DNA of 21,074 nucleotides from a virus (lineage: Duplodnaviria > Heunggongvirae > Uroviricota > Caudoviricetes), in IMG/VR virus record IMGVR_UViG_3300000358_000077; one strand, written 5' to 3'. How positions within the stretch are numbered: the first letter of the stretch is position 1; every line of letters starts with the position of its first letter. Position numbers and translations under genes: made by a program. Below are positions 5,358 through 7,903 of the stretch, piece after piece. Under the pieces are notes generated by a model that was given only the letters and a program-made list of their open reading frames with translations, was not told the DNA's origin and searched no databases.

Positions 5358-5632
5358 AAAAACTCCTGCCCGTAAGCTGGGCTGCTGAACAAATAAGGGG
5401 TTGCGCAGTATCTGGCGGTGGATGGCCGCCGGTTGTCATAACTAAGTCGCCTCGTTGAAGCAACTGAGGTATGAAGTGTTGAGTTGATTTCAGCTGGTCA
5501 CACCGACGTTCACGCGTCCGTTTCACCCCTCGCACTCCCCGGAGCCTGCTGAAATTCAAGCTGCGGATCTAAGCGGTCATCGCAACGGTGAATCAGGTGG
5601 TTGCCGTATCGTTGTGTTGTTGCGACATGGTG

Positions 5633-5661
5633 ATAATAGCTATTGCTATTGGTGATATCAA
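5633..5661 (-). promoter_or_regulatory. Candidate leftward early promoter (pL analogue)
   Basis: On the minus strand: TTGATA (-35, plus 5656..5661), 17-nt spacer, TATTAT (-10, plus 5633..5638). Overlaps the TTGCTATT operator repeats. Confidence 0.45.
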
Positions 5662-5710
5662 TACTTATTGCTATTGTTAGATGTGTTTTGCTATTAAATG
5701 TTTGATAGCA
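5635..5710. promoter_or_regulatory. Left operator region (OL analogue): repeated TTGCTATT / ATAGCAA motifs
   Basis: TTGCTATT at 5643, 5668 and 5688, with inverted ATAGCAA copies at 5635..5640 and 5704..5710. The same 8-mer recurs twice between cI and cro. Confidence 0.5.
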
Positions 5711-5800
5711 AAAAGAATTAATTTTGTAACTTGAATCGCATAGCGATAACTGAAGCGAGGTCGTGGTGGTTTTTTGAACGGTTTGTGTGATGAGGGGAGG

Positions 5801-5828
5801 CAAAAGAAAACCCGGCACGGTGGCCGGG
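5801..5828 (-). terminator. Rho-independent terminator immediately after the 317-aa gene
   Basis: CCCGGC-ACGGTG-GCCGGG hairpin (5811..5828) followed on the minus strand by UUUUCUUUUG (plus CAAAAGAAAA at 5801..5810). Starts about 6 nt after the stop codon. Confidence 0.6.
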
Positions 5829-5833
5829 TATCT

Positions 5834-6787
5834 TTATTCGAATGGAAGATCTATTTGCCTTTGAGGATTCAACTGTTTTTTTACATGCTCAATTTCGAAT
5901 ATGGTTTTTATGGCATCTCCGATCATATATTGAGTTACTTTTAAATCTACAAGTAACATATCACCTTTAGAAAAATTTAAGGTGTTGTTATCAATATCGC
6001 TGATGAATTTCTGGTCTTTTATTTCAGCCAAAAAGCTACTGGCACCATCAGAAAACCGCCACCGGCTTCCTTCATTGAAGGAAATATTTTTAATTTGAAG
6101 GGCTTTCTCTACTGTGTACTCTGAAATTATTGATTCTGCTGGTAGATTGACTTTGAAATAATGTGCTTCTTGCTTGTTGATCGTCATGAATGTCAAACCA
6201 TCATCGACAGTAGAGGCAAAGCTGTCAATGCCTTCCTGCTCTAATGGCTTACTTATAACTTCTTGTAATGAAGAGCGAAGTTTAATATTTTTATAAAGTT
6301 CAATAACGTTACTGTCGTAGATCTCGCTTTCGTCATCAACAAAGACTTCGATGTTGCTATCAGGCAAATTGTGTAATTTTTTTATTTTCCTTGGACCTAT
6401 CCATTTTATCAGTTGAATTAGGCCTTTGCATATTTTTTCTTTAGAACCAGGACAGAGTCCAATAAAAGCAATCAAATTCGCAGCGGCTGTTGCTGAATCG
6501 CCGGATAAAAAATCAACAGCCTGTTTGAACCAAGATGTAGATGAGGCAACCAGATCTATTCCAAATGAGCCAGCTTTAAATGATGCATTGACTTTTACAG
6601 AAACAACAGTCTTGTTTCCGTAGAGAGTTTTACCGGCTTCCTCTAATGCATCTGATAGTGATAGAAGGGCAGGAGCAAGGTCTCGCACGTTCATTTCATG
6701 CGTTTCCAGTGCCGGACCGTCGTATACTATCCTGAACTTCATATCATTGGTTTCCGAATTGTTGCCCGCATCCATTATGGCATTCAC
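5834..6787 (-). CDS. Hypothetical protein, about 317 aa, in the rexA/rexB slot downstream of cI; function unknown
   Basis: Long ORF co-oriented with cI, followed by its own terminator, visibly AT-rich relative to flanking phage genes. Start is ambiguous: GTG at 6787, ATG at 6775 or ATG at 6742, none with a strong Shine-Dalgarno. No recognisable motif. Confidence 0.65.
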   Translation of the reverse strand: MNAIMDAGNNSETNDMKFRIVYDGPALETHEMNVRDLAPALLSLSDALEEAGKTLYGNKTVVSVKVNASFKAGSFGIDLVASSTSWFKQAVDFLSGDSATAAANLIAFIGLCPGSKEKICKGLIQLIKWIGPRKIKKLHNLPDSNIEVFVDDESEIYDSNVIELYKNIKLRSSLQEVISKPLEQEGIDSFASTVDDGLTFMTINKQEAHYFKVNLPAESIISEYTVEKALQIKNISFNEGSRWRFSDGASSFLAEIKDQKFISDIDNNTLNFSKGDMLLVDLKVTQYMIGDAIKTIFEIEHVKKQLNPQRQIDLPFE

Positions 6788-6848
6788 CTGATCACATATA
6801 CAGTTAATTTACGATATTGTCTTAAATCTTAAAACTTCTATTGTATGG

Positions 6849-7541
6849 CTACCCATGCTTCCTATACGTCTGCGGCATGCTCCCAATAACCTTACCGAAG
6901 ATGAACACCCGGTTCATCTCGTCTTTCTCGATCGGGTCCCAAGGTGAGTAGCTCTTGTTATCAGAGATAACCAGCAGCTTATCCTTCATCATTTGCAGAC
7001 GCTTTACATGGGCTGTGTCGTCGTACAGAAACGCATAGATACCATCACCGTCGAAAGATTTAACCGTGATATCAACGAACAGCAGATCACCTGGTTCGAT
7101 CGTTCCTGACATGCTGTCACCACGCACGTTAATGATGCGGATATTTTCCGCCTTCCTGCCATCGAACATGTGACGAGCATCGTCAAACGAGTACTCAACC
7201 GAGCGTAGAACTTCTACAAACTCACGATTGATGACACCCGGCCCGGCACTGACTTCTATATCAAGAACGTCAATCTTGAAGTATTTGGAATGGTTGACAG
7301 CAGGCTTCCCTGATTGTTGACCGTCATTTCTCATCGGGCCTATGCCTGATGAGAGCCACTCAGTTCGAACACCCAATGCATTAGCTATTTCAACAATTTT
7401 TGTTGAGCCGCGCGCGTTGCCGCTTGTCAGTCTCCAGATTGTGGGTTGAGCTACGCCAGACGCCTTTGCAAGAGCGCCTTGAGACATTCCAGATTGTTCC
7501 ATCGCTAGGTTTAAGCGATCAGCAAGAGTTTCTTTTTTCAT
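6849..7541 (-). CDS. cI: CI-type immunity repressor (N-terminal HTH, C-terminal S24 LexA-like peptidase domain), 230 aa
   Basis: HTH-like segment GMSQGALAKASGVAQPTIWRL. C-terminal domain has the autocleavage-type serine (RGDSMSGTI) and lysine (AHVKRL) motifs. ATG at 7541..7539 sits close to the predicted pRM start (near-leaderless, as in lambda). The track ORF to 7577 uses an upstream TTG. Confidence 0.85.
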   Translation of the reverse strand: MKKETLADRLNLAMEQSGMSQGALAKASGVAQPTIWRLTSGNARGSTKIVEIANALGVRTEWLSSGIGPMRNDGQQSGKPAVNHSKYFKIDVLDIEVSAGPGVINREFVEVLRSVEYSFDDARHMFDGRKAENIRIINVRGDSMSGTIEPGDLLFVDITVKSFDGDGIYAFLYDDTAHVKRLQMMKDKLLVISDNKSYSPWDPIEKDEMNRVFIFGKVIGSMPQTYRKHG

Positions 7542-7579
7542 AAGTTTTAATTTATACGCTCGCGTATTGATGGTCAAAA

Positions 7580-7640
7580 CACGTTTTGCTATTGATTGGG
7601 TTAATACGCATTGCTATTATCTATTCATTGCAATACCAAT
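7580..7640. promoter_or_regulatory. Right operator/promoter region (OR, pR, pRM analogues)
   Basis: TTGCTATT at 7586..7593 and 7611..7618. Candidate pR on the plus strand: TTGATT (7592..7597), 17 nt, TATTAT (7615..7620). Candidate pRM on the minus strand: TTGACC, about 15 nt, TATAAA, ending a few nt before the cI ATG. Confidence 0.5.
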
Positions 7641-7651
7641 AGGAATTGATA

Positions 7652-7879
7652 ATGACAAATCAAACCATTCAACTCGCAATCAGTATTACAGGTAGTCAAA
7701 AACGACTGGCAGATCTATGCGGTGTAGCCCAACCCACTGTTTGGCGTTGGCTACACGGTGGCGGAATTGATGCCCGCTATGTAATGAAAATTGTCTCAGC
7801 CACTGGTGGAAAGATTAAACCAGCAGATATTCGTCCCGACCTCGCACCATTGTTTAACGCGAGTAATTCTGCCGCCTAA
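7652..7879 (+). CDS. cro: Cro-like HTH regulator (YdaS-like), 75 aa
   Basis: Divergent from cI across the operator region. ATG at 7652 preceded by AGGA with a 7-nt spacer (the track ORF starts at an upstream TTG). HTH-like segment LADLCGVAQPTVWRW. Confidence 0.7.
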   Translation: MTNQTIQLAISITGSQKRLADLCGVAQPTVWRWLHGGGIDARYVMKIVSATGGKIKPADIRPDLAPLFNASNSAA

Positions 7880-7903
7880 ACTGCGGCGTTAACTGATAAG
7901 GCA

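What the first reader, a model, noticed from the sequence alone, without database searches (positions are those of the whole stretch)
5834..6787. Unknown 317-aa AT-rich gene in the rexAB slot downstream of cI
In lambda the cI operon continues into rexA-rexB, an exclusion system, and this slot is a known moron hotspot in lambdoid phages. Here the slot holds a single AT-rich ORF with no motif I recognise, co-oriented with cI and followed at once by a strong intrinsic terminator. It is therefore likely expressed in the lysogen, a good candidate for a novel superinfection-exclusion or abortive-infection gene. Its start codon is ambiguous and no strong Shine-Dalgarno is present.
Basis: partly seen in the sequence, partly recalled or inferred. 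Interest (0 to 1): 0.8.

Follow-up and report, generated by a model that had tools for sequence, protein, structure and literature searches.

The report
Candidate phage-defence gene behind prophage repressor
A real, strongly conserved 313-residue gene of unknown function sits in the swap-slot behind the repressor of an E. coli lambda-like prophage; two published computational screens already flag its family as a likely anti-phage defence gene, but nobody has tested it.

Summary
It sits inside the immunity region bracketed by the oL and oR operator clusters, which is the rexAB position.

It is a genuine gene: dN/dS is 0.03, and the family has about 5,300 clusters at 50% identity, all about 300 aa.

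It is not unknown to databases:
- PADLOC PDC-S42 (an untested defence candidate), E 3e-86.
- NCBIfam NF053583, "LAPAL motif-containing putative phage structural protein".
- PHROG 3243.
- The identical protein, WP_000338655.1, is a "Predicted novel defense gene" in DefensePredictor (log-odds 6.4) but was not among the 118 units tested.

Homologues sit directly behind at least five unrelated repressors in four genera. They also occur as low-GC inserts in Mu-like head modules and next to a Type III methyltransferase or a MADS-like gene.

The predicted structure has an acidic C-terminal OB fold, a hydrophobic, basic helix-loop-helix, and two domains with no significant match. No catalytic motif was recognised. 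It shows no homology to RexA, RexB or BstA.

Most likely it is a lysogen-expressed single-gene defence or exclusion cargo. The mechanism is unresolved. Interest is moderate.

The parts
5831..6848 (-). Exchangeable cargo cassette: a 73-nt spacer plus the ORF, lying between the cI stop and the shared operon terminator.
   Evidence: Homology to phages PhiR30_1, 4A7 and PhiR47_2 ends at window 5828-5830 on one side and 6849-6850 on the other. Those phages carry different genes in between.
5834..6775 (-). CDS of 313 aa (WP_000338655.1), LAPAL / PDC-S42 / PHROG 3243 family. The 317-aa reading starts at GTG 6787.
   Evidence: dN/dS is 0.03 against the Pseudocitrobacter copy. 5,310 family representatives.
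6785..6789 (-). Shine-Dalgarno-like AGGTG, 9 nt upstream of ATG 6775.
   Evidence: Read directly from the sequence.
6536..6742 (-). N-terminal alpha/beta domain (residues 12-80). It carries the most conserved motif, YDGPAL-x4-M-x-VRDLAPAL (LAPAL is residues 33-37).
   Evidence: Alignment A1. AF2 secondary structure. Weak DUF7946 N-terminal similarity in 7 of 54 members.
6392..6535 (-). Hydrophobic, Gly-rich helix-loop-helix ending in a basic KW-x-GRK motif (residues 81-128). It is the only basic segment of the protein.
   Evidence: Block pLDDT (blocks of 10 residues) 51-85, mostly below 75. Kyte-Doolittle 19-residue maximum >= 1.6 in 25 of 54 members and 1.31 in this copy. Median pI 9.3 against about 5 for the other domains.
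6146..6391 (-). Middle alpha/beta domain (residues 129-210) with no significant fold match.
   Evidence: AF2 block pLDDT 90-96. No significant matches other than to the OB fold in PDB or BFVD.
5861..6145 (-). C-terminal OB-fold domain (residues 211-305), acidic, with invariant W239, G244, D254, F257, K270 and D272.
5802..5829 (-). Intrinsic terminator of the immunity operon (hairpin 5810-5829 plus T-tract). It belongs to the conserved backbone, not to the cargo.
   Evidence: -16.6 kcal/mol, z -3.0. It lies inside the block shared with the other phages.
6849..7541 (-). cI-type repressor (HTH_3 + Peptidase_S24), the upstream gene of the same transcription unit.
7570..7645 (.). oR operator cluster with divergent promoter-like sites (the pRM/pR region).
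5627..5713 (.). oL operator cluster with a leftward promoter-like site (5661 to 5633).
7652..7879 (+). cro-like HTH gene, divergent from cI.

Best explanation
The gene is a stand-alone accessory cargo gene (a moron) of an E. coli lambdoid prophage integrated at icd. It is inserted between cI and the immunity-operon terminator, so it is transcribed with cI from pRM (and pRE) in the lysogen. Its most likely role is single-gene anti-phage defence or exclusion that protects the lysogen against other phages.

**Shown**
- The anatomy of the cassette and its boundaries.
- Purifying selection on the gene.
- Family membership (PDC-S42, LAPAL_fam, PHROG 3243).
- Repeated capture of homologues behind unrelated repressors, and next to RM or MADS-like genes.
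- Lower GC than the flanks almost everywhere.
- Absence of any recognisable enzymatic or canonical transmembrane domain.

**Inferred**
- Lysogenic expression, from operon geometry only.
- The defence function, from context and two published predictors.

**Speculative (about 0.2)**
The protein is an acidic, roughly 35-kDa cytoplasmic protein that works by binding rather than catalysis. The acidic C-terminal OB fold would recognise a phage protein (less likely ssDNA). The conserved N-terminal LAPAL domain, together with the hydrophobic, basic Gly-rich helix-loop-helix, would mediate oligomerisation or association with the inner membrane. The outcome would be either blocked entry or replication of the incoming phage, or membrane damage that aborts infection. 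That would make it a one-polypeptide analogue of the RexA sensor plus RexB membrane effector.
For: **Anatomy**
- The ORF, spacer and terminator are as described, and the spacer is unstructured.
- The gene lies within oL...oR, matching lambda's rexAB position.
- The cassette boundaries fall exactly at the cI stop and the shared terminator, with other cargo in sister phages.

**Real gene**
- dN/dS is 0.03.
- 261 close hits and 5,310 representatives, all about 300 aa.

**Defence indications**
- PADLOC PDC-S42, E 3.4e-86, full length. PDC models were built from clusters containing at least one protein embedded in a BREX, DISARM or type I RM system.
- DefensePredictor lists the identical WP_000338655.1 at log-odds 6.42, above the stringent cutoff of 4, as 'Predicted novel defense gene'. 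A partial copy scores 8.9.

**Context**
- Homologues lie directly downstream of, and co-oriented with, unrelated repressors: E. coli Rac-like prophages, two Pseudomonas savastanoi prophages, Burkholderia, and Pseudocitrobacter, Yersinia, Serratia, Lonsdalea, Neopusillimonas and another Pseudomonas.
- They lie next to integrase or in the lysogeny module in Lactobacillus phage A2, a Listeria phage and a Bifidobacterium phage.
- They lie immediately beside a Type III methyltransferase (L044, L059) or a mad3/mad8-like gene (L071).
- In Acinetobacter a homologue is 1.2 kb from a BstA_C gene.
- Gene GC is below the flanks in 69 of 74 loci.
- No conserved partner gene: 142 Pfam families among 144 immediate neighbours.
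- Rare accessory gene: 34 of 5,426 complete E. coli genomes.

**Published precedent**
- The cI-N interval is a recognised hotspot that holds rexAB and bstA, and is driven by a highly transcribed lysogenic promoter (PMC8585504).

**Structure**
- AF2 mean pLDDT 84.5. OB fold. Hairpin hydropathy. Domain charges.
Against: - There is no experimental evidence of any kind, and I found no paper that tests the family. Brenes & Laub 2025, the most relevant paper, could not be read.
- Only 45% of the units DefensePredictor predicted gave protection when tested, and this gene was not tested.
- PDC systems are explicitly untested candidates.
- Some homologues sit inside Mu-like head-morphogenesis modules, co-oriented with late genes, and NCBI names the family 'putative phage structural protein'.
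- Most of the 80 species-level loci have neighbours unrelated to phage or defence.
- No effector domain, catalytic motif or clean transmembrane segment was recognised. In this copy the hydrophobic hairpin reaches only KD 1.31 and has a charged loop.
- Lysogenic transcription is inferred from geometry, not measured.
Confidence: 0.6

Rival explanations
1. The gene is an accessory gene that serves the phage or the host in some way other than defence. Examples are a counter-defence or host-takeover factor, a modulator of lysogeny establishment or induction, or a lysogenic-conversion factor affecting host physiology. On this view it is carried in the cI slot only because that slot tolerates cargo.
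For: - The protein is acidic throughout, including its OB fold, as many inhibitor or mimic proteins are (my own knowledge).
- It has no recognisable effector domain.
- Many loci are not in defence islands.
- Transcription from pRE during establishment would also express it (established lambda biology, not tested here).
- The 45% validation rate of the predictor leaves ample room for this reading.
Against: - Two independent defence predictors flag the family.
- Embedding within or beside RM or MADS-like genes is not expected for an anti-defence gene.
- Counter-defence genes are normally early lytic genes, whereas this gene lies upstream of pL and cannot be read from it.
- Characterised occupants of the same slot (RexAB, BstA) are defence systems.
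Confidence: 0.25
2. The gene encodes a phage structural or virion-morphogenesis protein, as the NCBIfam product name says.
For: - NCBIfam NF053583 is named 'LAPAL motif-containing putative phage structural protein' and matches at 270 bits against a cutoff of 60.
- Homologues lie between the Mu G-like (Phage_tail_S) gene and the Mu I-like protease/scaffold gene, co-oriented with head genes, in at least three Mu-like elements (L016, L041, L086).
Against: - In the window the gene is in the immunity operon, on the opposite strand from the late genes.
- In all three sequenced Gram-positive or actinobacterial phages it is in the lysogeny or moron region.
- Sister phages with the same cI lack it entirely, and only 34 of 5,426 E. 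coli genomes have it. It is therefore dispensable for virion formation.
- In the Mu-like loci it is a 12-15 point GC dip flanked by 75-280 nt intergenic gaps, the signature of an inserted moron.
- Defence genes inside Mu-like structural modules have a precedent in Tab (PMC10884400).
- There is no fold similarity to any capsid, tail or scaffold protein.
Confidence: 0.06
3. The ORF is a decaying or functionless remnant that happens to remain open.
For: - The composition is atypical.
- The nearby SNIPE homologue in the same prophage is frameshifted.
- One E. coli copy of this gene is interrupted by IS1.
Against: - dN/dS is 0.03 at dS of about 1.2.
- Sixteen columns are invariant across 54 sequences down to 33% identity.
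- There are thousands of full-length relatives of uniform length.
- The structure prediction is confident.
Confidence: 0.02

Closest known systems
PADLOC phage defence candidate PDC-S42 (Payne et al., bioRxiv 10.1101/2024.01.29.577857)
   Same: Full-length HMM match: E 3.4e-86, residues 15-316 against profile positions 3-300 of 302. It is a single-gene system. Members were found embedded in known defence systems, and I also see RM- and MADS-adjacent copies.
   Different: None at the sequence level; the window gene is a member. The 'system' is a computational candidate with no experimental test, so membership confers no known mechanism.
NCBIfam NF053583 LAPAL_fam / PHROG 3243
   Same: 270 bits against a cutoff of 60. 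PHROG 3243 E 1.3e-116. The LAPAL motif is present at residues 33-37.
   Different: The 'structural protein' part of the NCBIfam name is not borne out by the window or by most other contexts. PHROG lists the function as unknown.
Lambda RexA/RexB abortive-infection system
   Same: Identical genomic position and regulatory logic: between cI and oL/pL, co-oriented with cI and ending at the immunity terminator. Both are lysogen-expressed cargo.
   Different: No homology (hhalign probability 0.2% to RexA and 0.1% to RexB). This is one gene rather than two. It has no four-helix membrane protein like RexB, only a short hydrophobic hairpin.
BstA prophage abortive-infection protein (Owen et al. 2021, PMC8585504)
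   Same: A single protein of about 300 aa encoded directly downstream of, and presumably co-transcribed with, the prophage repressor in diverse Gram-negative bacteria.
   Different: No KilA-N or BstA_C domain. hhalign probability 0.1% to a BstA_C protein. No aba-like self-immunity element was looked for or identified.
Other cargo of the same slot in sister phages (GevT/GevA in PhiR47_2; two hypothetical genes in PhiR30_1; a 353-aa protein plus an ASCH protein in 4A7)
   Same: The same insertion point to the nucleotide, and the same cI/cro backbone and terminator.
   Different: Unrelated two-gene cassettes. No tblastn hit of the window protein in those phage genomes.
OB-fold proteins (RPA70N, Rim1/SSB, PriB, ExoVII large-subunit N-domain)
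   Different: Only 7-22% identity. The domain is acidic (median net charge -5), unlike typical ssDNA-binding OB folds. The rest of the protein has no significant counterpart in PDB.

Membership tests
PADLOC PDC-S42 | Significant full-length match to the PDC-S42 HMM. | tested here: met
   E 3.4e-86, 287.5 bits, residues 15-316 against profile positions 3-300 of 302.
PADLOC PDC-S42 | Single-gene unit with no obligate partner. | tested here: met
   142 Pfam families among 144 immediate neighbours in 80 species-level loci. No neighbour family recurs in more than 6.
PADLOC PDC-S42 | Protects cells against phage. | not testable with these tools
   PDC systems are described as untested. The accession is absent from the 118 tested units of DefensePredictor.
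NCBIfam NF053583 LAPAL_fam | Score above the curated cutoff, and a LAPAL motif. | tested here: met
   270.4 bits against a cutoff of 60. DLAPAL at residues 32-37.
NCBIfam NF053583 LAPAL_fam | Being a phage structural protein, as the product name implies. | tested here: not met
   The gene is encoded in immunity or lysogeny modules. Sister phages lack it. In Mu-like head modules it is a low-GC insert. No structural-protein fold match. Virion content itself could not be tested.
Lambda Rex (RexA sensor + RexB membrane protein) | Homology to RexA and/or RexB. | tested here: not met
   hhalign probability 0.2% and 0.1%.
Lambda Rex (RexA sensor + RexB membrane protein) | Location in the cI operon between cI and oL, ending at the immunity terminator. 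| tested here: met
BstA | N-terminal KilA-N-like domain and a BstA_C domain. | tested here: not met
   No Pfam hit in any of 54 members. hhalign probability 0.1% to a BstA_C protein.
BstA | Encoded downstream of, and co-oriented with, the prophage repressor. | tested here: met
   True in the window and in at least 10 homologous loci with different repressors.
Membrane-anchored superinfection-exclusion proteins (Sie-type) | Signal peptide or a canonical transmembrane helix. | tested here: inconclusive
   There is no N-terminal hydrophobic segment. The central hairpin reaches KD >= 1.6 in 25 of 54 members but only 1.31 here, and it has a charged loop in the enterobacterial clade.
ssDNA-binding OB-fold proteins | OB barrel with a basic, aromatic nucleic-acid-binding face. 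| tested here: inconclusive
   The fold is present and K238, W239, R240 and K270 are conserved. The domain is nevertheless net acidic across the family. Binding was not testable.

The most novel reading that the evidence does not exclude
The LAPAL/PDC-S42 family is a very widespread immune protein (at least 5,300 clusters at 50% identity, from Enterobacterales to candidate-phyla bacteria and Gram-positive phages). It is non-enzymatic and most of it has no significant structural match. On this reading it combines sensor and effector in one polypeptide. An acidic OB fold captures a conserved phage protein. That capture releases the Gly-rich hydrophobic hairpin and LAPAL domain, which oligomerise in or on the inner membrane and collapse membrane potential or block DNA entry. 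This would be a one-gene functional equivalent of RexAB, occupying RexAB's own slot.
Probability: 0.15. Interest if true: 0.75.

Novelty: new variant of a known kind. Interest (0 to 1): 0.5.

Why it matters
The interval between cI and pL is the textbook home of rexAB and of BstA, and it is read from one of the most active promoters of a lysogen. This cassette is a third, unrelated occupant. Its family is large, uniform in length and structurally uncharacterised, and it is repeatedly captured by unrelated repressor operons, Mu-like late operons and restriction-modification loci.

If it is a defence gene, it adds a mechanism without any recognisable enzyme domain. It would also give a clean, single-gene system for studying how a prophage protects its host without harming its own induction.

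If it is not a defence gene, it is a useful false positive for two widely used predictors (PADLOC PDC models and DefensePredictor). It would also be grounds to correct the 'structural protein' product name that PGAP is now propagating.

Tried and rejected
**Sequence and fold searches that gave no functional lead**
- Pfam on the protein and on all 54 aligned homologues: only sub-threshold DUF2004 and DUF7946 hits.
- PDB sequence search with the single sequence and with the profile: nothing.
- BFVD viral structures: only uncharacterised proteins.
- AFDB50 was not available.
- Rfam on the whole window: no RNA family.

**Homology rejected**
- RexA, RexB and BstA.
- Tab: per the paper it is a small protein, on the minus strand between the terminase genes, with homologues only in JBD26-like phages.

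**Literature**
- No paper holds 'PDC-S42', 'LAPAL motif', 'WP_000338655' or 'DUF7946'.
- A search for GevT/GevA returned only noise.
- Brenes & Laub 2025 (Cell Host Microbe), the paper most likely to have screened this prophage region, is not held. I cannot exclude that it or another subscription paper tested the gene.

**Other dead ends**
- Seeded phmmer and an iterated HMM for repressors found only some of the upstream regulators.
- A canonical transmembrane helix was considered and not accepted, because of the charged loop and the low hydropathy in this clade.
- An ssDNA-binding role for the OB fold was considered and down-weighted, because the domain is acidic family-wide.
Full report
**What is there.** The window is the early and immunity region of an E. 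coli lambdoid prophage integrated next to icd. The 5600-7000 segment (this gene, part of cI and the left flank) is 100% identical in NZ_OZ547223 and NZ_CP195434. The PGAP annotation of the surrounding prophage there reads int, xis, exo, bet, gam, kil, this gene, an XRE/S24 repressor, a cro-like HTH gene, replication genes, and so on.

The better start is the ATG at 6775, giving 313 aa. PGAP uses it. The ME/MD N-terminus is conserved in the closest homologues. It is preceded at 9 nt by AGGTG.

The gene has 37.7% GC and 34% GC3, against 47.5% and 52% for the adjacent cI. The 73-nt spacer after the cI stop has no stable fold (z = +1.1). The hairpin that begins 4 nt after the gene's stop is a good intrinsic terminator: -16.6 kcal/mol, z = -3.0, followed by a U-tract.

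A 49-nt repeat carrying clustered TTGCTATTG boxes occurs at 5627-5675 and 7570-7618, each with a promoter-like site. These are the oL and oR regions. The order is therefore oL, gene, cI, oR, cro, which is the order oL, rexB, rexA, cI, oR, cro in lambda.

**It is a swappable cassette inside the cI transcription unit.** Phages PhiR30_1, 4A7 and PhiR47_2 share the cI/cro backbone at 96-98% identity. Their homology to the window stops at 6849/6850 (the cI stop codon) and resumes at 5828-5830, inside the terminator hairpin.

Between those points they carry other genes:
- PhiR30_1 carries two hypothetical genes.
- 4A7 carries a 353-aa protein plus an ASCH-domain protein.
- PhiR47_2 carries the pair its depositors annotate as GevT toxin and GevA antitoxin.

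The terminator thus belongs to the backbone. Whatever sits in the slot is placed between cI and the operon's terminator, and upstream of pL. Expression with cI in the lysogen follows from this geometry and from lambda biology. It was not measured.

**It is a real, constrained gene of a large family.**
- Against the 93%-identical Pseudocitrobacter copy, dN/dS is 0.03 at dS of about 1.2.
- A word-indexed search found 261 relatives.
- An exhaustive profile search of 1.84 billion cluster representatives found 5,310 at E <= 1e-3 and 1,735 at E <= 1e-30. Nearly all of the best 150 are about 300 aa (range 229-354), and none is longer than 354 aa.
- A scan of one genome per species found 304 carriers. 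They span Gamma-, Beta- and Deltaproteobacteria, Melainabacteria, Nitrospinota and candidate-phyla bacteria.
- tblastn finds relatives at 27-33% identity in Lactobacillus phage A2, Listeria phage vB_LmoS_188 and Bifidobacterium phage PMBT6.
- In E. coli it is a rare accessory gene, present in 34 of 5,426 complete genomes, all at least 99.7% identical. One copy is cut by IS1.

**What the databases call it.**
- Pfam has nothing for it.
- PADLOC matches PDC-S42 at 3.4e-86 over the full length.
- PHROG 3243 (unknown function) matches at 1.3e-116.
- NCBIfam NF053583, 'LAPAL motif-containing putative phage structural protein', matches at 270 bits against a cutoff of 60.

PDC systems are 145 untested candidates. 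They were derived from proteins embedded in BREX, DISARM or type I RM systems (bioRxiv 10.1101/2024.01.29.577857).

The identical protein, WP_000338655.1, appears in Table S5 of DefensePredictor (Science 2026, PMC13092281). Its mean log-odds is 6.42, above the stringent cutoff of 4, and it is labelled 'Predicted novel defense gene'. A partial copy in Table S10 scores 8.9. The accession is absent from Table S6, which lists the cloned and tested units. That paper reports 45% validation of the 94 units it cloned on prediction, out of 118 cloned in all.

I found no paper that tests the family. The most relevant subscription paper could not be read.

**Genomic context of relatives.** The strongest pattern is capture by repressor operons. 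Homologues at 35-60% identity lie immediately downstream of, and co-oriented with, unrelated repressors:
- a 155-aa CI_repr protein in E. coli Rac-like prophages;
- a 220-aa HTH+S24 protein and a 271-aa S24 protein in two different Pseudomonas savastanoi prophages;
- a 132-aa HTH_31 protein in Burkholderia;
- HTH or S24 proteins in Pseudocitrobacter, Trabulsiella, Yersinia, Serratia, Lonsdalea, Neopusillimonas and another Pseudomonas.

In the three Gram-positive or actinobacterial phages, the gene lies beside the integrase or between lysin and attP/int. That is the classical moron region, never the structural module.

A second recurrent site is inside Mu-like head modules, between the G-like (Phage_tail_S) gene and the I-like protease/scaffold gene (L016, L041, L086). 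This probably explains NCBI's 'structural' name. There the gene is a 12-15 point GC trough with 75-280 nt intergenic gaps on both sides, which is what an inserted moron looks like. Defence genes inside Mu-like late regions have a precedent in Tab (PMC10884400).

Other copies sit directly upstream of Type III methyltransferases (L044, L059), downstream of a 1,086-aa mad3/mad8-like protein (L071), or 1.2 kb from a BstA_C gene in Acinetobacter.

Beyond these the neighbours are heterogeneous: 142 Pfam families among 144 immediate neighbours. There is no partner gene. Gene GC is below the flanks in 69 of 74 loci, with a median difference of -6 points. Together this describes a mobile, self-contained, single-gene cargo.

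**The protein.** AlphaFold2 on a 54-sequence alignment gives mean pLDDT 84.5. The model has four parts:
- **Residues 12-80:** a beta-alpha-beta-beta domain carrying the family's signature, YDGPAL-x4-M-x-VRDLAPAL.
- **Residues 81-128:** a low-confidence helix-loop-helix.
- **Residues 129-210:** an alpha/beta domain with block pLDDT above 90.
- **Residues 211-305:** a five-stranded barrel with an inserted helix.

No catalytic constellation was recognised. The invariant polar residues are D19, D254, K270 and D272, with near-invariant R31, D32, R167, K238 and D243.

The protein is acidic (pI 5.0), and so is the OB domain across the family (median net charge -5). That makes a protein-binding OB fold of the RPA70N type more plausible than an ssDNA binder.

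The only basic segment is the 81-128 hairpin (median pI 9.3). It consists of two short hydrophobic, Gly-rich helices ending in KW-x-GRK. Its 19-residue hydropathy reaches the transmembrane threshold in 25 of 54 members. In the window copy it reaches only 1.31, and the loop there is charged (GSKEK). I read it as an oligomerisation or peripheral-membrane element, not a canonical transmembrane helix. This is unresolved.

The family profile has no detectable similarity to RexA, RexB or a BstA_C protein (hhalign probabilities 0.1-0.2%).

**Interpretation.** I put the defence or exclusion reading at about 0.6. The reasons are:
- the position in the lysogenic operon;
- the cassette-like exchange with other cargo;
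- repeated independent capture behind unrelated repressors;
- adjacency to RM or MADS-like genes;
- compositional foreignness;
- two independent published predictors;
- the precedents of rexAB and bstA at the same site (PMC8585504).

The mechanism is conjecture, at about 0.2. I propose binding of a phage component by the acidic OB domain, coupled to oligomerisation or membrane action of the N-terminal half.

The main rival, at about 0.25, is a non-defence accessory role for the phage or the host. The 'structural protein' reading (about 0.06) and the 'dead ORF' reading (about 0.02) are poorly supported.

**Novelty and interest.** The family is already catalogued as a candidate by PADLOC, DefensePredictor, PHROGs and NCBIfam, so the finding is not a discovery of an unknown gene. 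What remains open is whether it defends, and how. The protein has no characterised homologue, most of it has no significant structural match, and the family is very large. I rate it a new variant of a known kind (cargo of the prophage immunity region), with moderate interest of 0.5. It is a good experimental target rather than a surprise.

Noticed in passing
window 12786-14287 (-): A PD-lambda-1/SNIPE homologue (PADLOC E 4e-190; DUF4041 + T5orf172/MUG113 nuclease) is split by a frameshift. One part is a 78-aa ORF carrying the N-terminal transmembrane helix (14051-14287). The other is a 432-aa ORF carrying the DNA-binding and nuclease parts (12786-14084). Most of the 131 E. coli genomes with this gene annotate one intact CDS; a 99.9%-identical allele spans one nucleotide more in its record (1,652 vs 1,651 nt). 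The SNIPE paper reports that a version lacking the transmembrane helix cuts host DNA, so this allele is either dead or interesting.
   Followed up: partly
window 10879-12426 (-): A 515-aa HD-domain protein lies in a 26-35% GC island next to the SNIPE homologue, between the replication genes and the nin region. Hits are Pfam HD and HD_assoc_2, PHROG 35128, and only sub-threshold similarity to dGTPase/dNTP triphosphohydrolase models. It may be a second defence-type cargo gene of the same prophage.
   Followed up: partly
L100, L101, L102 (phages PhiR30_1, 4A7, PhiR47_2): The same cI-to-terminator slot holds unrelated two-gene cassettes in sister phages. One is annotated GevT toxin / GevA (ASCH-domain) antitoxin. 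The exchange points coincide to within 1-2 nt with the cI stop and the terminator.
   Followed up: partly
L016 6001-6942; L041 6001-6936; L086 6001-6906: Homologues recur as low-GC inserts between the Mu G-like (Phage_tail_S) gene and the Mu I-like protease gene of Mu-like prophages. This looks like a second hotspot for this cargo and is the probable origin of the 'structural protein' product name.
   Followed up: partly
window 6200-6228 (-): A promoter-like site (TTGACA-17-GATGAT, 10 of 12) lies inside the ORF, just upstream of an in-frame Met that precedes the OB domain. It recalls pLit inside rexA. However, the number of such sites in the region is not above chance (4 found, 5.4 expected).
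   Followed up: no
L005-L008 (Acinetobacter), 6001-9067: The Acinetobacter homologue lies in a small island with a weak HIRAN-like gene and a BstA_C-domain gene, between housekeeping genes. It resembles a defence islet or a prophage remnant.
   Followed up: no
L065, L083, L094, L095, L097 (Burkholderia): Five Burkholderia loci share a homologous small ORF (145-203 aa) immediately downstream of the gene. It is probably the GNAT acetyltransferase family that five neighbour ORFs hit in Pfam, though I did not map those hits to loci. This suggests a conserved site in that genus. The link was not examined.
   Followed up: no
E. coli NZ_CP041425 (hit H90): One of the 34 E. coli copies of the gene is interrupted by an IS1A element.
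   Followed up: no
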